A program made the translations under genes and the position numbers. 32,000 bases of DNA from Promethearchaeota archaeon (GTDB taxonomy: Archaea; Asgardarchaeota; Lokiarchaeia; Sigyniarchaeales; SOKP01). The notes under the pieces were generated by a model. The model did not search any database. It worked only from the letters and a program-made list of their open reading frames with translations, and was not told where the DNA came from. Numbering within the stretch: position 1 is the stretch's first letter; the number at the start of each line of letters is the position of its first letter. Where the stretch lies: positions 30,001 to 62,000 of the forward strand of contig JAUWGH010000006.1 of the NCBI GenBank assembly GCA_030606485.1. Reading direction: 5' to 3'. Positions 7,236 through 32,000 of this stretch are shown piece by piece.

Positions 7236-9227
7236 TTATTCTCCTTCTTGATCTTCAAATAAACCTAGATTTGGGTCTAGGAATTGATTACTACACATAG
7301 GACAAGCATTATATTTAGAAATCCAATAAGCTACGCATAGATAATGAAATACCGACCCGCAAAATGGACACACAATTATATTTTCTCTCGCGATATTAAT
7401 ATATTTATGGCATACAGTGCATTGGACATTAGAGGTTGAAATTCCCTCCCTTAATCTAATTCGAGAGGATAAAACTTCTTCTAATTTTGACATTTCTTCT
7501 TGATAAAGTCTTTTTTCTCGATTTGATTTTTTTATTTGAGAATTAATCGATTGAATTCTCTCCTTTAATTCATCATCAGATAATTTTTCCGGAAAAAGTG
7601 TTGTAAAACGATAATTCAGTGGAATTTCATGGTCTAATAATCCAATATTTTTTATCGTGCTAAAAAGAATCTCTTCTTTGCCAATAATCTCTTTAAATGA
7701 AATAAAAAGTTTAGAAATTGATAAGTATAGTGCAAATTTCATTTGATTTGTTTTTTCAGTAAAATTTTTTTCCCAATTTTTTATAAGACTGTATGGACTA
7801 ACTCCTTTTTTTCTAATATCTTCAAATATTTTTGTAATCTCTTTTTGGATTTTAGTAGTTTCTACCGTATATTTTCTCAGCATATTTTTAATATTTTCTA
7901 ATTCAGGAAACTCCTGATTTATAGTCTTAGAGGTTTCTTGTTGATAAAAATTCAACATATGATTTAATTTTGCAATTTTATTATCAATAACATCTTTTAC
8001 TTCAGCTTTTACTTTCTCTTCATATATAGATTGAGCGGAATTTTCAAAATTTTCCGTTCTTCTTTGAATTTCTGAATTTATATTATTTATTGTTTTATTT
8101 ATATTTAATGTGATCTCATCGTAAGGCTTTAAATAATTTTCAAATTCTAAAATCCAATCCACAATATCATCTAATAAATTAATTAATTGAAGATTCTTTA
8201 AGCGAAGGTGGATTATACAATCTTGTTCTTCAATCCTTTTTTGATAATAAGTTTCAATTTTTTCAAAAATCTTTAATATCGGTTTTGAAATGAAATTATA
8301 AATATCACTTTGATTTAACTCTTCTAAGATTTTCTTTATTTCACTCTTAGTAATGATCTTTCCGTCATCATAAATTTCTTTCCTTTCTAAAAACAAATTA
8401 AATATAAAATCCCTTAATAATTCAATTAAAAATAAACGTAAATTTTTTTTAATCTCTGCTTTCTCTGTAGAATCCCTATATTCCTCTATTTCATTGATAG
8501 AAAAAATCCCCATTGAATAAAATAAATTAATATATTCATAAATAAGCACGGATTTAAAGATTTTGGACTCTTGAAGGTCAGAAATTATATCATGTAAATA
8601 AAAAACAATATTTTCTTCTCGTCCCTCATTAATAATTGGGACTTCAGCGTGCTGTTCTACGATTTCACATAATGATTTTAATGGCTCCCAAATTTCAAGA
8701 TTTAACGGAAGTTTTTTAAGAATAAAAGAAGTTTTCTTAAGTATAGAGCTTTCAATAAATATATTAATTTGATTATTGAATCTGGGTCTGAACTTTTCCT
8801 TATTAGATTGTACAAAATCAATAAGATTATCGCATTGGTCTCTTGAATACTTAATATTTTTATATATTTTTTCAATTAATTTCTTATTTTTAATTATAAC
8901 TTTTATATTCCTCATATCTAAGAAGAGAATTCTAATCCTCTGTTCAATTCGCATTAATTCACTTAAAATTTCTGATAGAAAATAATATAATTCATTTAAA
9001 TTCCCAACTTCGAAATAATTACTAAAAAAATCTTCTAAATTTATTAAGTATTCAGAAATTTTATTAAAATCTTCTAAATCAAACTTGGACGAAATAAAGT
9101 TTATAATTTCTGATTTCTTTGATTTATTTTTCTCAAAATAAATTAATTGTTTTTTTATTTCTTCAATCTCTACTTTTGTAAATCCTTTTATATCATCAGA
9201 AATAAAACCATTATTACTAAATAACAT
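7236..9227 (-). CDS. Long helical/coiled-coil protein with C-terminal C4HC3 RING-variant finger (putative E3 ligase)
   Basis: CTVC-x13-CPFC-x4-H-x2-C-VAYW-x6-CPMC at 7293-7421, with the RING-typical Trp four residues after the sixth ligand and a final CPxC. Preceded by a heptad-rich coiled coil. Confidence 0.75.
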   Translation of the reverse strand: MLFSNNGFISDDIKGFTKVEIEEIKKQLIYFEKNKSKKSEIINFISSKFDLEDFNKISEYLINLEDFFSNYFEVGNLNELYYFLSEILSELMRIEQRIRILFLDMRNIKVIIKNKKLIEKIYKNIKYSRDQCDNLIDFVQSNKEKFRPRFNNQINIFIESSILKKTSFILKKLPLNLEIWEPLKSLCEIVEQHAEVPIINEGREENIVFYLHDIISDLQESKIFKSVLIYEYINLFYSMGIFSINEIEEYRDSTEKAEIKKNLRLFLIELLRDFIFNLFLERKEIYDDGKIITKSEIKKILEELNQSDIYNFISKPILKIFEKIETYYQKRIEEQDCIIHLRLKNLQLINLLDDIVDWILEFENYLKPYDEITLNINKTINNINSEIQRRTENFENSAQSIYEEKVKAEVKDVIDNKIAKLNHMLNFYQQETSKTINQEFPELENIKNMLRKYTVETTKIQKEITKIFEDIRKKGVSPYSLIKNWEKNFTEKTNQMKFALYLSISKLFISFKEIIGKEEILFSTIKNIGLLDHEIPLNYRFTTLFPEKLSDDELKERIQSINSQIKKSNREKRLYQEEMSKLEEVLSSRIRLREGISTSNVQCTVCHKYINIARENIIVCPFCGSVFHYLCVAYWISKYNACPMCSNQFLDPNLGLFEDQEGE

Positions 9228-9266: not shown

Positions 9267-9884
9267 CTATTCGCCTAATTCATTTAACTCGAGATATTTC
9301 TCTTTATATCCTGCATCAGTTATTGTTAAAATATCAATACCATTACCTGCCATTGCATCTCTTGCTAATGCAGAACGTATTACTTTTTCTACTAATTTTT
9401 CACCTTTTGCAATTGTCATTTCTGGTATGTATTCCGATTCAAGCATTCCTACCATCATCAGCATACTCGTACCCCCCACTCCGTAGTCATCAGGCATCAA
9501 AGATCCGATCGCATCTAATGTATAAAGCTTTGGTCCATCAATATCTACTCCAGCTATAACAACATTTGTAAATAAGGGAAACATTTTCCGATAATACAGA
9601 TAATTACTAATCATCTTTCCCATACTTTGTGTAGAAATTCTTGAACCAGCTTCGTATTGATACAAATTTGCTCTAGCTTTCATAATTTTTACTAAAATTT
9701 GAAAATCTCCAATTAATCCATATGCAGAAAGGCCAATATTATCGGTTAATGGAAATACCTTTTTAGTTGATTTATTCGTAACAGTATAACCTAATGTAGC
9801 CCGTCGATCATTGCCTAAAACCACTCCTTCTTTGCATTTTATTGCGACCGAAGCCGCTCCTGGAATCATGAATTCCCTGCTCAT
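9267..9884 (-). CDS. psmB: 20S proteasome beta subunit, predicted non-catalytic
   Basis: Ntn-hydrolase pattern G|AASVAIKCKEGVVLGNDRRAT...KKVF, GLIGDFQ, VVIAGVD, YTLDAIGSL, SALARDAMAGNGIDI. Thr1 is replaced by Ala. Confidence 0.93.
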   Translation of the reverse strand: MSREFMIPGAASVAIKCKEGVVLGNDRRATLGYTVTNKSTKKVFPLTDNIGLSAYGLIGDFQILVKIMKARANLYQYEAGSRISTQSMGKMISNYLYYRKMFPLFTNVVIAGVDIDGPKLYTLDAIGSLMPDDYGVGGTSMLMMVGMLESEYIPEMTIAKGEKLVEKVIRSALARDAMAGNGIDILTITDAGYKEKYLELNELGE

Positions 9885-10175: not shown

Positions 10176-10394
10176 TTAGAAATATTTGATTGCTAAAAGC
10201 AAATCATCCTTTGTTACTTTCTTTCTACCTGCATGATTACAGAATGTGATAGCTTGTTTAGTAATAGATGTAGCTGTACTCTCTAAATTTTCAATCAAGA
10301 GATCTACTGCATCTCTCGCAACAATAGTTGCACCTTGTTTTTTCATTAATCTCCTAACTGGACTCCAGGCGAAAGAATGTTTCTTTTTTGCCAT
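10176..10394 (-). CDS. Archaeal histone (HMf-like fold) with a short basic N-terminal extension
   Basis: SPVRRLMKKQGA...HAGRKKVTKDDLLLAI histone-fold pattern; GGAGG RBS upstream. Confidence 0.92.
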   Translation of the reverse strand: MAKKKHSFAWSPVRRLMKKQGATIVARDAVDLLIENLESTATSITKQAITFCNHAGRKKVTKDDLLLAIKYF

Positions 10395-18603: not shown

Positions 18604-18644
18604 AAAAAAATTTATTCTTTGTGTTCTTTAATATTTTAGATATA

Positions 18645-19676
18645 ATGATTAATCCTTTCGCAAATTTTTATCGTGTCCCGACATCTCAAGAACTTCTAGA
18701 TATTGCTTTTAGTAGAGCTATGAAAAGTAGTGCGGCAGTATCTAAAAATGCCCCTAAAATATTAAAAGCAAGAAAAAAAGAAATTAAAAGAATTCAAGTC
18801 GCAATCAAAGAAATTATAGATAGAATTTTAAAAATTATTAAGATGGTCCCGATTATCCAGGAAATACCCGAATTCTATCGAGAATTGGCCTCATTAATCG
18901 TTAATACTGATGAATTAAGACTAACTCTAGGAAAATTAAATGGTATATTGCCTATCTTAAGTAAAATTGAAAAAGATTATAAAACTCGAATTAAAAATTC
19001 AGAAATCCCCAAAGAAATTGCGAAATATAGACGAGCAGTATTTGGAAGAATATCTTCAATAATAAACAAACAAAAAAAAAGTTTAAATTATTTAAATGAA
19101 ATTAGAGGAGAATTAAGAAGAATACCCTCTATTGATTATGAAATTCCTTCAATAGTTATTGCCGGGTATCCTAATGTAGGAAAGAGTAGTCTTGTAAGAT
19201 TAATTTCGTCAGGAAAACCCGAAGTTCAACCATATCCTTTCACAACTAAAAAGATAATTATCGGACATCATATAGTAGAAAAAAACTATGATATGACTAA
19301 ACTCCAAATAATTGATACTCCAGGGATCTTGGATAGACCTATGTCAAAAAGAAATAAGATTGAATTGCAAGCAATACTAGCTCTAAACTTGATTTCTGAT
19401 GTTATAATTTTCATATTTGACCCTACTCCTGCTTGCGGATATGATATTGATTGTCAGGTGGATTTATATTATGAAATTTGTGATAATTTCTCCAAAGATG
19501 GCAAAATACCAATTATCTTAGTTTTTAATAAAATGGATCTGGCTAATGAGGAGGAAATTCAATTTTTAAAGAATAAATTAAATTTAAATGAAGATGATTT
19601 TTTTCTAATTAATGCTTTAATAAAGGATGAATTCGTAAATAAATTGATTGAATTCGTAATAAATAAATTGACATAA
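18645..19676 (+). CDS. Nog1-family (Obg-like) GTP-binding protein
   Basis: G1 GYPNVGKSS, G2 YPFTTK, G3 DTPG-ILDR, G4 NKMD; helical N-terminal domain with EFYRELA. Start may be 18621 (GTG). Confidence 0.9.
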   Translation: MINPFANFYRVPTSQELLDIAFSRAMKSSAAVSKNAPKILKARKKEIKRIQVAIKEIIDRILKIIKMVPIIQEIPEFYRELASLIVNTDELRLTLGKLNGILPILSKIEKDYKTRIKNSEIPKEIAKYRRAVFGRISSIINKQKKSLNYLNEIRGELRRIPSIDYEIPSIVIAGYPNVGKSSLVRLISSGKPEVQPYPFTTKKIIIGHHIVEKNYDMTKLQIIDTPGILDRPMSKRNKIELQAILALNLISDVIIFIFDPTPACGYDIDCQVDLYYEICDNFSKDGKIPIILVFNKMDLANEEEIQFLKNKLNLNEDDFFLINALIKDEFVNKLIEFVINKLT

Positions 19677-29814: not shown

Positions 29815-32000
29815 TTAACCATATAAACTTTCTTCTGGACCCACCGTTCTCTTAGCTCTCATATAAGATTTCGTATGTTCATCTGCACGCTTCAAAATTT
29901 TGTCAATAGCTTGTTCAAAATGCTTTTTTTCAATTTTAATAGTTTCGATTTTTTCCTTTTCTTCATTTAATATTTGCTTTTGTAAAACTGCTTCTCTAAT
30001 GGCCAGTAATGTAGCTTCTTCACTTATTGCTTGAACATCTGCACCAGTATAACCATCTAATTTTTCTGCTAATTTATCTATATTTACATTATCATCAATT
30101 GGCTTTTCTTTTAAATGGATTTTAAAGATTTCAATAAGCGCTTCCTTATCCGGTAAATTAATTTGAACATGTCTCCCAAATCTTCCTGCTCTTAATAGAG
30201 CAGGGTCTAACATATCTGGTCTGTTCGTGGCTGCAACTAATACAACGTCCCTTAATTCTTCTAATCCATCCATTTCAGTTAAAAGTTGAGAAATTACTTG
30301 TTCAGATACCTGAGAACCTATATGCATGCCTCTTATACTTGCAATTGCATCGATCTCATCGAAAAATATAATACAAGGAGCTGCCATTCTTGCCTTTCTA
30401 AAGGTTTCTCTAACGGCTTTTTCGCTCTCTCCAACCCATTTTGAAAAAAATTCAGGACCTTTTACGGAAATAAAATTTACTTCACTCTCGTGAGCTAAGG
30501 CTCTTGCTAATAATGTTTTGCCTGTTCCAGGTGGGCCAAATAGTAATATTCCATTTGGTGGTTTTGAATTCATATGCTTATATAGGTTTGGATATTTAAG
30601 TGGCCATTCAATAATCTCTTTTAATTGCTGTTTTGCATCTTCTAATCCGCCAACATCATCCCAGGTTTCTTTAGGCGTAGTTATTAATACTTCCCTTAAT
30701 GCCGATGGTTCAATACTAGTGAGTGCTTGATTAAAATCCTCCATCGTAATCTGAATTTTATTTAAAATCTCTGCTGGTATTGGTTTCTCCATATCTATTT
30801 CAGGTAAAATACGCCTTAAACTTAACATAGCTGATTCTTTAGCTAATGCTTCAATATCAGCTCCTACAAATCCATGGGTTCTATCTGCTAATTCTTCTAA
30901 GTCAACATCCTTATATAAGGGCATTCCTCTTGTATGAATTTGCAAGATCTCATAACGTCCGTCTCTATTTGGAACACCAATAACGATTTCTCTATCAAAC
31001 CTGCCTGGACGCCTTAATGCCTCGTCAATATCATTCACTCTATTTGTTGCTCCAATAACAATTATTTCTCCTCTCGATTTCAAACCATCCATAAGAGATA
31101 ACAATTGAGCAACAACCCTTCTCTCAACTTCTCCAGTAACTTCACCTCTCTTGGGAGCTATAGAATCTAATTCATCAATAAAAATAATCGAAGGAGCATT
31201 TTTTTTCGCGTCTTCAAATATATTTCTCAAATTTTCTTCACTTTGCCCATAAAATTTACTCATTATTTCTGGACCTGAAATAGTTATGAAATGTGCATCT
31301 GTTTCATAAGCAACTGCTCTTGCTAATAATGTTTTACCCGTTCCCGGTGGTCCATGCAAGAGAACTCCTTTTGGCGGAGATATGCCCGCTCTTTTAAATA
31401 ATTCTGGATGTCTCATCGGTAACTCAATCATTTCTCTAATTTTTCTAATCTCTTCATATAACCCTCCGATATCTTCATAAGTTACTCGTAATTTTTCAGC
31501 AGCTTCGATTTCTTCTACCGCCTTTTCTGAAACTATTATTCTAGTCTTAGTATGAATTCTAACTGCCTCAGCTTGAGGAGTAAATTTCGTAATCATAAAA
31601 TCAAATCTTTGTCCCATTGCATAAAAACTAATGATATCTCCTTTTGTAACTACACGATTATCTAATAAATTTGCTAATGCTTTTGAATCCCTTATAACTA
31701 CTGGCCTTCCAATTGAAGCAAACGTAATAGTTCCTGCCAGTTTAGCTTCTATTTTTCTTACAGTAACCCAATCATCAATAGAAGCGCCAAGATTTCGCCT
31801 TAATGAACTGTCTAATCTAATGATACTCGATCCAACATCTACTTGTCTGCCAGGATATAATAATCCAGCTGTTCTTTTGTCTTTATTCTCATTATAAACT
31901 TCAATTACATCTCCTGTTCCTAAATTGTGTTTTCTAGATATCAATGGATCTATACGTAAAATACCACGACCAGAATCTTCTTTTAATGCATCTGCAATCC
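29815..32000 (-). CDS. cdc48: Cdc48/VCP family AAA+ ATPase (N-terminus beyond the window end)
   Basis: The frame stays open past the ORF-track start ([18 protein letters not shown]...). Two Walker [12 protein letters not shown], Walker B IIFIDE / [15 protein letters not shown]-terminal LYG. Confidence 0.96.

What the first reader, a model, noticed from the sequence alone, without database searches (positions are those of the whole stretch)
9267..9884. Proteasome beta subunit lacking Thr1 and Ser129, with eukaryotic beta3-like motifs
Seen: the processing site reads PG|AASVA (GCG GCT TCG) instead of G|TTTVG. Asp17 and Lys33 are retained, but the GSG loop reads GVGGTS, so two independent catalytic elements are lost and a single base error cannot explain it. 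The segment DDYGVGGTSMLMMVGMLESEYIPEM resembles, from memory, eukaryotic beta3 (DFVVSGT...[13 protein letters not shown]). Known: inactive beta paralogues exist in some TACK archaea and in eukaryotes. Inference: a structural subunit of a heteromeric beta ring, possibly informative about the origin of eukaryotic inactive subunits.
Basis: partly seen in the sequence, partly recalled or inferred. Interest (0 to 1): 0.68.

Follow-up and report, generated by a model that had tools for sequence, protein, structure and literature searches.

The report
Non-catalytic proteasome beta subunit, Asgard archaeon
This gene encodes a proteasome beta subunit that has lost its catalytic threonine; it belongs to an old family shared by Asgard and TACK archaea, and two non-catalytic subunits of the eukaryotic proteasome (beta3 and beta6) appear to descend from that family.

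Summary
Window 9267-9884 (minus strand) encodes a 205-aa proteasome beta subunit (PF00227, 3e-46). It reads G|AAS where catalytic subunits read G|TTT, and G-T-S where they read G-S-G. Asp17, Arg19, Lys33, Gly47 and Asp166 are kept.

It is not an error or a pseudogene. Position 1 is Ala in 119 of the 121 closest homologues (Ser in 2, never Thr), and dN/dS is about 0.17.

The genome is a Loki-type Asgard archaeon. It also encodes two alpha subunits and two beta subunits with intact catalytic motifs. The best solved relative is Saci_0662 of Sulfolobus acidocaldarius, the beta subunit that builds an inactive 20S particle on its own. Most sampled Asgard families, and Bathyarchaeia, Nitrososphaera and Fervidicoccaceae, carry the same paralogue.

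The beta3 idea is partly supported. Eukaryotic beta3 and beta6 are the only eukaryotic proteins identified in the top 150 of 1.84 billion representatives. In maximum-likelihood trees they nest inside this non-Thr1 clade, next to the window protein. Foldseek ranks beta6 first. However, AU tests do not reject other placements (p 0.26-0.31), and beta1, 2, 4, 5 and 7 could not be included.

First readers of this scan noted the same inactive subunit, and its RING-gene neighbour, in other genomes.

The parts
9267..9884 (-). Gene for the non-catalytic (Ala1) proteasome beta subunit, 205 aa (P0001)
   Evidence: ORF. PF00227 at 3.2e-46. TIGR03634 scores 187.5 bits, below its 224 cut-off. AF2 model has pLDDT 90.5. 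Foldseek TM 0.86-0.90 to proteasome beta chains.
9855..9860 (-). Processing-site codons Gly(-1)|Ala1 (GGA GCG), where catalytic subunits have Gly|Thr
   Evidence: Sequence; alignments. Position 1 is Ala in 119 of 121 close homologues and never Thr.
9858..9884 (-). Short 9-residue N-terminal extension (MSREFMIPG), probably not removed
   Evidence: The extension is 9 residues in 103 of 121 homologues. In the stop-to-stop frames the own catalytic paralogues have roughly 20-45 residues before Thr1. Vertebrate beta3 also has 9 residues before its aligned Gly-Ala (MSIMSYNGG|A). That it is not processed is an inference.
9465..9473 (-). G-T-S in place of the G128-S129-G130 loop
   Evidence: Thr at 129 in 121 of 121 homologues; Ser at 130 in only 8. 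Beta3 has G-T-C, G-T-S or G-T-A.
9759..9809 (-). Retained Asp17 (9807-9809), Arg19 and Lys33 (9759-9761)
   Evidence: Invariant in 121 of 121 homologues.
9348..9350 (-). Ala in place of Ser169 (RDAMAGNG)
   Evidence: Ser or Thr in 118 of 121 homologues, Ala only in this genus.
7236..9227 (-). Gene 39 nt downstream on the same strand: a 663-aa helical protein ending in a RING-H2 finger. It is a conserved neighbour and a probable co-transcript.
   Evidence: zf-RING_2 at 3.1e-5 (24.6 bits, below GA) here. The G121 orthologue scores 31.1 bits, above GA 27.3. The homologue lies next to the beta gene in 26 of the 30 related loci, at 24-33% identity outside the genus, and a same-strand 678-691-aa gene follows the beta gene in all six longer loci.

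Best explanation
The gene encodes a non-catalytic structural beta subunit of the 20S proteasome of a Loki-type Asgard archaeon. It keeps the full Ntn-hydrolase beta fold and the residues that shape the ring and pocket (Asp17, Arg19, Lys33, Gly47, Asp166). It has Ala where the N-terminal nucleophile Thr1 should be. It therefore cannot cut itself at Gly(-1)|1 or hydrolyse substrates, and it most likely keeps its 9-residue N-terminal extension.

It most likely takes up places in the heptameric beta ring next to one or both of the genome's two beta subunits with intact catalytic motifs. That would lower the number of active sites per ring and give them defined neighbours. This is the arrangement shown for Saci_0662/Saci_0909 in Sulfolobus and for the seven-membered eukaryotic ring.

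It is a member of an old paralogue family (Gly|Ala at the processing site) shared by TACK and Asgard archaea.

Shown: sequence, fold, conservation, family membership and catalytic-type partners in the genome. Inferred: incorporation into the 20S particle, lack of processing, stoichiometry and ring order.
For: Family and fold: PF00227 at 3e-46; AF2 pLDDT 90.5 and pTM 0.87 with the canonical strand/helix order; Foldseek TM 0.86-0.90 to beta chains.

No nucleophile: G|AAS. Position 1 is Ala in 119 of 121 homologues. Position 3 is mostly Gly, so the local Ser is not a conserved substitute nucleophile.

Under selection: dN/dS 0.16-0.19; 586 homologues with E<=1e-10, at 70-92% identity across Loki-type MAGs.

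Partners: the genome has two alphas and two betas with G|TTT, D/E17, K33 and GSG.

Closest solved protein: 6z46_H, which is Saci_0662deltaN (1.6e-38). It forms an inactive 20S alone and gains activity only with Saci_0909 (PMC4569737; bioRxiv 10.1101/774273).

Distribution: 14 of 21 sampled Asgard families have a G|A or S|A paralogue, and three more have G|G or more divergent non-Thr1 forms. Named TACK members are Fervidicoccaceae, Bathyarchaeota and Nitrososphaera, plus 582 loci of which the best 80 are all Bathyarchaeia. The nearest ESM Atlas clusters are Nitrososphaerota and Bathyarchaeota 'beta 1'.

Clade: the non-Thr1 clade has UFBoot 100 and SH-aLRT 98.
Against: No biochemical or structural data exist for any Asgard proteasome. 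Incorporation, stoichiometry and ring order are all inferred.

Saci_0662 differs in detail: it has Glu at position 17 and an intact GSG, so the parallel rests on family membership, not on identical residues.

Two of the 121 homologues have Ser at position 1, which can be a nucleophile in other Ntn hydrolases.

Strict conservation of Asp17, Arg19, Lys33 and Asp166 could mean a retained chemical role and not only a structural one.
Confidence: 0.85

Rival explanations
1. Evolutionary rival. The resemblance to eukaryotic beta3/beta6 is convergence or a tree artefact. All seven eukaryotic beta types arose by duplication of one catalytic archaeal beta after the eukaryotic stem split off. Beta3 and beta6 are drawn to the archaeal non-Thr1 clade because both have shed the same constraints and sit on long branches.
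For: AU tests do not reject trees that keep eukaryotes outside the archaeal Ala1 clade (delta lnL 20.7, p 0.26), or outside that clade plus its nearest catalytic relatives (delta lnL 17.2, p 0.305). The eukaryotic stems are long (0.66, with 1.75 for beta3). Beta3 alone floats among long branches. A profile of the non-Loki Ala1 members scores beta5 (147-153 bits) as high as beta6 (144) and beta3 (142). Eukaryotic beta1, 2, 4, 5 and 7 were not in the trees. A 2026 preprint treats Asgard betas as pre-duplication homologues (PMC13734099).
Against: The nesting survives removal of 54 aligned columns around the active site (aLRT 83 and 97). It survives removal of the Loki lineage. It holds for beta6 alone and for beta3 alone. 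The genome's two catalytic-type paralogues hit beta2/beta5 or beta1/beta5 best, with no beta3 or beta6 in their top 60, while the window protein hits beta3 (87 bits) and beta6 (85) about 20 bits above beta2 and beta5. Used as queries, beta3 and beta6 hit the non-Thr1 paralogue best in 9-15 of 16 Asgard genomes.
Confidence: 0.45
2. The protein is not a ring subunit of the canonical 20S. It could act apart from it, as an assembly factor or cap, or as its own homo-oligomer. Alternatively it could have a non-proteolytic activity that uses the conserved Asp17/Lys33/Asp166 set, possibly linked to the RING protein encoded next to it.
For: Asp17, Arg19, Lys33 and Asp166 are invariant although the nucleophile is gone. 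The gene pair with a RING-finger gene is conserved. Other proteasome homologues have acquired non-protease roles, such as Connectase (PMC7980362, listed; not read here).
Against: Eukaryotic beta3 and beta6 keep the same residues (vertebrate beta3 and Giardia beta6 keep all three; two other sequences have Arg at position 33) and are ordinary ring subunits. The nearest solved relative, Saci_0662, is a ring subunit. No extra domain or insertion is present, and the length is 205 aa in 102 of 121 homologues.
Confidence: 0.08
3. The gene is a decaying copy or a sequencing or assembly error of a normal catalytic psmB.
For: None beyond the missing Thr1.
Against: Ala1 and Thr129 are fixed across 121 homologues from many independent assemblies. 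dN/dS is 0.16-0.19. The reading frame is intact and the model is confident.
Confidence: 0.01

Closest known systems
Saci_0662 (PsmB1-type beta subunit) of Sulfolobus acidocaldarius, PDB 6Z46
   Same: It is the best PDB sequence hit (1.6e-38, 135.7 bits) and a close structural match (TM 0.86/0.96, rmsd 1.0, 39-40% identity). A profile of the clade scores it at 247 bits. Experimentally it is non-catalytic and is the bulk component of the beta ring; activity needs a second beta, Saci_0909.
   Different: Saci_0662 has Glu at position 17 and an intact G-S-G, whereas the window protein has Asp17 and G-T-S. The residue at position 1 of native Saci_0662 was not seen here, because the crystallised construct is N-terminally truncated. 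It comes from a crenarchaeon with one alpha and two betas; this genome has two alphas and three betas.
Eukaryotic beta6 (PSMB1 / yeast Pre7)
   Same: It is non-catalytic, with no Thr1 (G|G-T). It keeps D17, R19 and (in Giardia) K33, and Giardia has G-T-G at 128-130. It gives the top Foldseek hits (E 3e-21, TM 0.89-0.90) and scores 85 bits by phmmer. Giardia beta6 ranks 93rd of 1.84 billion representatives. It shares the motif KVFP(L/V)TD. Alone, it is sister to the window's lineage in the tree (aLRT 89).
   Different: It has Gly, not Ala, at position 1. It has a longer propeptide and an insertion after helix 3. Identity is only 25-31%.
Eukaryotic beta3 (PSMB3 / yeast Pup3)
   Same: It has the same length (205 aa) and a 9-residue N-terminal extension before the aligned Gly-Ala. 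It has no Thr1, has G-T at 128-129 (fungal GGTS is identical to the window protein), and shares ...G(M/I)(L/C)E(S/A)...P(E/D)M. It is the best eukaryotic phmmer hit (87 bits, 34% identity).
   Different: It has Gly at position 1. Its branch is very long, and its exact partner inside the non-Thr1 clade is unstable when beta6 is left out.
Catalytic archaeal PsmB (TIGR03634 equivalog), e.g. Thermoplasma, Archaeoglobus, Methanocaldococcus
   Same: Same fold and length, 31-37% identity, E 1e-29 to 1e-34.
   Different: The window protein scores below the equivalog cut-off (187.5 against 224) and lacks Thr1, Ser129 and Gly130.

Membership tests
Proteasome beta subunit superfamily (Pfam PF00227, MEROPS T1A) | Significant match to the family profile over its whole length | tested here: met
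   157.8 bits against a 22.4 cut-off; profile positions 4-189 of 189.
Proteasome beta subunit superfamily (Pfam PF00227, MEROPS T1A) | Ntn-hydrolase alpha-beta-beta-alpha sandwich | tested here: met
   AF2 pLDDT 90.5. Foldseek TM 0.86-0.91 to solved beta chains.
Catalytic archaeal PsmB (NCBIfam TIGR03634, equivalog) | Score at or above the curated cut-off | tested here: not met
   187.5 bits, below 224.
Catalytic archaeal PsmB (NCBIfam TIGR03634, equivalog) | Thr1 nucleophile directly after Gly(-1) | tested here: not met
   G|A-A-S. Never Thr in 121 homologues.
Catalytic archaeal PsmB (NCBIfam TIGR03634, equivalog) | Asp17, Lys33, Gly47, G128-S129-G130, Asp166, Ser169 | tested here: not met
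   D17, K33, G47 and D166 are kept. S129 is Thr, G130 is Ser and S169 is Ala.
TACK/Asgard non-catalytic beta paralogue (Saci_0662 type; no formal family name) | Non-Thr residue, usually Ala, at position 1 after a conserved Gly | tested here: met
TACK/Asgard non-catalytic beta paralogue (Saci_0662 type; no formal family name) | Falls in one clade with the named TACK members, apart from the Thr1 betas | tested here: met
   The clade has UFBoot 100 and aLRT 98 in the careful C20 tree, 98 in FastTree and 97 with active-site columns removed. Members are named.
TACK/Asgard non-catalytic beta paralogue (Saci_0662 type; no formal family name) | Occurs together with at least one Thr1 beta in the same genome | tested here: met
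   The own genome has two. Every sampled Asgard genome that has the paralogue also has a Thr1 beta (in G009 only a fragment without its N-terminus was recovered).
TACK/Asgard non-catalytic beta paralogue (Saci_0662 type; no formal family name) | Is built into the 20S beta ring and is inactive on its own | not testable with these tools
   Shown only for Saci_0662 (PMC4569737; bioRxiv 10.1101/774273).
Orthologue or ancestor-lineage of eukaryotic beta3 (and beta6) | Reciprocal best similarity between this paralogue and beta3/beta6, as opposed to the catalytic types | tested here: met
   Forward: beta3 87 and beta6 85 bits, against beta2 68 and beta5 66. The own catalytic-type paralogues show no beta3 or beta6 in their top 60. 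Reverse: the non-Thr1 paralogue is the best hit in 9-15 of 16 genomes, by small margins.
Orthologue or ancestor-lineage of eukaryotic beta3 (and beta6) | Phylogeny places beta3/beta6 with this paralogue, to the exclusion of the other eukaryotic and archaeal beta types, with statistical support | tested here: inconclusive
   Sister to the window lineage at 95/76 and robust in four perturbations. But AU p is 0.26 and 0.305, and beta1, 2, 4, 5 and 7 could not be obtained by reference.

The most novel reading that the evidence does not exclude
The split of the proteasome beta ring into catalytic and non-catalytic subunits did not begin in eukaryotes. A Thr1-less beta paralogue arose in a common ancestor of TACK and Asgard archaea, and eukaryotic beta3 and beta6 (possibly also beta4 and beta7) descend from it. 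The two catalytic Asgard paralogue lines would then be the nearest relatives of beta1, beta2 and beta5. On this reading the archaeal ancestor of eukaryotes already had a mixed ring of at least three beta types and two alpha types.
Probability: 0.45. Interest if true: 0.78.

Novelty: new member of a known kind. Interest (0 to 1): 0.58.

Why it matters
The eukaryotic 20S proteasome has seven different beta subunits, and four of them are inactive. How and when that fixed heteromeric ring arose is an open question in the origin of eukaryotic cell complexity. The usual assumption is that one archaeal beta gene duplicated in the eukaryotic stem lineage.

This gene shows that Asgard archaea as a group carry a conserved, selected, non-catalytic beta subunit alongside two catalytic lines. 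The trees and similarity ranks obtained here place eukaryotic beta3 and beta6 inside that archaeal family.

If that placement holds with full sampling, part of the eukaryotic ring architecture was inherited and not invented. Asgard or Sulfolobus proteasomes would then be experimentally tractable intermediates for studying how inactive subunits become fixed in a ring.

The conserved pairing with a RING-finger gene, and in one genus also with a JAMM gene, hints at a direct genomic link between this subunit and a ubiquitin-type tagging system.

Tried and rejected
Gene neighbourhoods were taken from the genome search and genome-fetch loci instead.
- Eukaryotic beta1, beta2, beta4, beta5 and beta7 could not be obtained by reference. 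They are not in the top 150 of the representative search, and a beta3/beta6 profile search returned only beta3 and beta6. I did not type sequences from memory, so the full seven-paralogue tree was left out.
- The search for related loci with the broad Ala1 alignment A3 failed because it had no conserved stretch. The narrower alignment A4 returned only Bathyarchaeia among its best 80 loci, so it adds no breadth beyond that class.
- AU tests were expected to settle the eukaryotic placement and did not.
- A profile of the non-Loki Ala1 members shows no preference for beta3/beta6 over beta5. The roughly 20-bit preference is therefore specific to the Loki-type sequences.
- Ser12 (position 3) as an alternative nucleophile was rejected. 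Position 3 is Gly in 102 of 121 homologues, and it is out of register with the fold.
- Sequencing error or pseudogene was rejected.
- Seven full-text literature searches found no paper that links an Asgard or TACK inactive beta to beta3/beta6. The MEROPS 2018 paper notes more proteasome subunits in Asgard archaea and draws a speculative Lokiarchaeote ring scheme whose legend distinguishes active and inactive betas (PMC5753285). Subscription journals are not covered.

Full report
**1. What is in the sequence**

Window 9267-9884 holds one ORF on the minus strand, 205 aa (P0001). It matches Pfam PF00227 (Proteasome) over the whole profile (3.2e-46). It matches the archaeal beta equivalog TIGR03634 at 187.5 bits, below the curated cut-off of 224, and it matches alpha models far more weakly.

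I aligned it to the two Thr1-type beta subunits of the same genome.
- The processing site is G9|A10-A11-S12, where they have G|T-T-T.
- Asp17 (D26), Arg19 (R28), Lys33 (K42), Gly47 (G56) and Asp166 (D176) are kept.
- The G128-S129-G130 loop is G-T-S.
- Ser169 is Ala.

One refinement: Ser129 is replaced conservatively by Thr, and the extra Gly in 'GVGGTS' lies before the loop.

**2. It is a real, selected gene**

The search for homologous proteins returned 586 homologues with E<=1e-10. The best 120 are 70-92% identical, nearly all 205 aa long, and those with names are from Promethearchaeota (Loki-type) MAGs or MAGs labelled Hod- or Hermodarchaeota.

Across these 121 sequences:
- Position 1 is Ala in 119, Ser in 2, and never Thr.
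- Position 129 is Thr in all.
- D17, R19, K33, G47, G128 and D166 are invariant.
- The N-terminal extension is 9 residues in 103.
- The Ser at position 3, Ser130 and Ala169 of the window protein are minority states among the 121 (16, 8 and 3 sequences).

dN/dS among the three same-genus orthologues is 0.16-0.19. An AlphaFold2 model built on a 64-sequence alignment has mean pLDDT 90.5 and the canonical beta-subunit topology.

**3. Genome context**

The window is contig C4:30001-62000 of a 3.75-Mb, 13-contig genome with about 25-38% G+C in this window. The genome has five PF00227 genes:
- two alpha subunits (C10, C6);
- two beta subunits with G|TTT and GSG. The C1 copy has Asp17. The C5 copy has Glu17 in a TESQAT motif;
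- this gene.

In the stop-to-stop frames, the two Thr1-type copies have roughly 20-45 residues before Thr1, against 9 here.

**4. The family is Asgard-wide and shared with TACK archaea**

A protein search of 151 genomes of the same GTDB phylum found matches in 148. I extracted every PF00227 gene from 21 genomes of 21 families.
- 14 families have a paralogue with G|A or S|A at the processing site.
- One family has G|G.
- Two families have very divergent non-Thr1 copies.
- Four families (f5, f14, f15, f22) lack such a paralogue; three of these (f5, f14, f22) have only one alpha plus one or two other PF00227 genes, and f15 has three alphas and one Thr1 beta.
- Every genome with the paralogue also has a Thr1 beta (in G009 only a fragment lacking its N-terminus was recovered).

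A full HMMER scan of 1.84 billion representatives gave 1956 hits. Non-Thr1 representatives among the top 150 include named Fervidicoccaceae, Bathyarchaeota, Nitrososphaera and Hodarchaeales proteins. A pattern scan of GTDB genomes found 582 related loci, and the best 80 are all Bathyarchaeia. The nearest ESM Atlas clusters are Nitrososphaerota and Bathyarchaeota 'beta 1'.

The best solved relative is 6z46_H. This is Saci_0662deltaN of S. acidocaldarius. With the alpha subunit it forms a complete but inactive 20S particle, and it gains activity only when Saci_0909 is co-assembled at a lower ratio (PMC4569737; bioRxiv 10.1101/774273).

**5. Mechanism**

From points 1-4, the best reading is a non-catalytic structural beta subunit that fills places in a mixed beta ring. 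Without Thr1 it can neither remove its own propeptide nor attack substrates. The very short, conserved N-terminal extension fits a subunit that stays unprocessed, as eukaryotic beta3 does (general knowledge).

Incorporation, stoichiometry and ring order are inferred, not shown.

**6. The link to eukaryotic beta3 and beta6**

*Similarity ranks*
- By phmmer against the PDB, the window protein hits archaeal betas first. Next come eukaryotic beta3 (87 bits) and PSMB1/beta6 (85). Beta2 (65-68) and beta5 (66) lie about 20 bits lower.
- The own C1 paralogue hits beta2 (107) and beta5 (104). The C5 paralogue hits beta1-type (100, 94, 88-90) and beta5 (96). Neither has beta3 or beta6 in its top 60.
- In the 1.84-billion-protein scan, the eukaryotic proteins I could identify in the top 150 are beta3 (P0226, a vertebrate; P0248, Brassica) and beta6-type (P0214, Giardia; P0271, an unnamed marine-metagenome protein). 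No eukaryotic catalytic beta was recognised there.
- Foldseek on the model ranks eukaryotic beta6 chains first (E 3e-21, TM 0.89-0.90). Saci_0662 follows (rmsd 1.0), then human beta3.

*Trees (alpha subunits as outgroup)*
- FastTree, 200 sequences: all non-Thr1 betas form one clade (98). Beta3+beta6 (95) sit inside it, sister to the window lineage (90).
- IQ-TREE LG+C20+F+G4 PMSF, 97 sequences by 209 columns: non-Thr1 clade including the eukaryotes 100/98; window lineage + (beta3+beta6) 95/76; beta3+beta6 99/95.
- With 54 aligned columns around all active-site elements removed, the sister relation (83) and the clade (97) persist.
- Without the three Loki-type rows, the eukaryotes stay in the clade and become sister to the Hodarchaeales G|G group, weakly (58).
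- Beta6 alone is sister to the window lineage (89). Beta3 alone stays in the clade but has no stable partner.

*Reverse searches*

With beta3 or beta6 as query, the non-Thr1 paralogue is the best hit in 9-15 of 16 Asgard genomes, by small margins.

**7. Limits of that link**

- AU tests do not reject a tree with the archaeal Ala1 sequences monophyletic without eukaryotes (delta lnL 20.7, p 0.26).
- They also do not reject a tree with eukaryotes outside that clade plus its four nearest catalytic representatives (delta lnL 17.2, p 0.305).
- A profile of non-Loki Ala1 members scores beta5 as high as beta6 and beta3.
- Eukaryotic beta1, 2, 4, 5 and 7 could not be obtained by reference, so eukaryotic beta monophyly was not tested.

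I therefore treat 'beta3/beta6 descend from the archaeal non-catalytic paralogue' as a well-motivated hypothesis, at about 45%, and not as a result.

**8. What is known and what is new**

Known:
- Inactive beta subunits in Sulfolobus.
- The MEROPS 2018 paper notes a larger number of proteasome subunits in Asgard archaea. It draws a speculative Lokiarchaeote ring scheme whose legend distinguishes active from inactive beta subunits (PMC5753285).
- A 2026 preprint finds an Asgard-eukaryote structural cluster around beta2/beta7 and reads Asgard members as pre-duplication homologues (PMC13734099).

In seven full-text searches I found no paper that places beta3 or beta6 inside a TACK/Asgard non-catalytic clade. 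The library lacks most subscription journals.

The gene itself is a new member of a known kind. The evolutionary reading is the part that could be new.

**9. Neighbourhood**

Thirty-nine nt downstream on the same strand lies a 663-aa helical protein ending in a RING-H2 finger (7236-9227). Its homologue lies next to the beta gene in 26 of the 30 related loci fetched, at only 24-33% identity outside the own genus; the beta subunit stays 60-72% identical across most of the same family. A same-strand 678-691-aa gene follows the beta gene in all six longer loci. The four of these scanned have a RING match, and the G121 copy is above Pfam's gathering score (31.1 against 27.3).

In G121, a JAB/JAMM protein and a methyltransferase lie directly upstream on the same strand. 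A histone gene (10176-10394) is also a frequent neighbour.

First readers of this scan noted the same pair and the same inactive subunit in other genomes. My synteny and conservation counts agree with those notes.

**10. Verdict**

- Observation: confirmed.
- Interpretation: partly supported.
- The gene is an ordinary member of a conserved archaeal family of non-catalytic proteasome beta subunits.
- It has a real but statistically unsettled affinity to eukaryotic beta3 and beta6, which deserves a properly sampled phylogeny and a reconstitution experiment.

Noticed in passing
window 7236-9227 (-); loci L006-L032, L198-L203: A 663-aa helical protein with a C-terminal RING-H2 finger starts 39 nt after the beta gene on the same strand. 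The pair is kept across the GTDB family although the RING protein is only 24-33% identical outside the own genus. The G121 orthologue passes Pfam's zf-RING_2 gathering score.
   Followed up: yes
L199:5742-7212 (-), genome G121: In one genus of the same family, a Prok-JAB (JAMM) protein and a methyltransferase lie directly upstream of the beta gene, co-oriented. The order is JAMM, methyltransferase, non-catalytic beta, RING.
   Followed up: partly
window 10176-10394 (-): A 72-aa archaeal histone gene (PF00808, 1e-12) lies about 290 nt upstream of the beta gene. It is a neighbour of the beta gene in many relatives, sometimes on the other strand.
   Followed up: partly
G000 C1:422590-423309 (+) and C5:45285-45929 (+) (loci L002, L004): The genome's two Thr1-type beta paralogues have different best eukaryotic matches. 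The C1 type hits beta2 and beta5. The C5 type (Glu17, TESQAT) hits beta1-type and beta5. Both lines are Asgard-wide, which suggests three ancestral Asgard beta lines.
   Followed up: partly
P0175, P0156, P0143, P0176 (Hodarchaeales-type representatives): These non-Thr1 betas have Gly-Gly at the processing site, as eukaryotic beta3 and beta6 do. They become the weakly supported sister of the eukaryotic sequences when the Loki-type rows are removed.
   Followed up: partly
L090 (G032, f17), L092 (G066, f20), P0186, P0268, P0179: Two Asgard families carry very divergent non-Thr1 betas that have also lost Asp17 and, in all but P0179, Lys33 (for example E|S-M-V, Thr17, Ser33).
   Followed up: no
G029 (f15): L081, L086, L095, L091: This Asgard genome has three alpha-type genes, two of them adjacent, and only one Thr1 beta. 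No non-catalytic paralogue was found with this query.
   Followed up: no
window 29815-31944 (-) and 18621-19676 (+): A Cdc48/VCP-type double-AAA ATPase with CDC48 N-terminal domains, and a NOG1-type GTPase, both eukaryote-like, lie in the same window.
   Followed up: no
2 of the 120 homologues P0002-P0121 (not individually identified): Two of the 121 close family members have Ser instead of Ala at position 1. Ser can act as an Ntn nucleophile in other families.
   Followed up: no
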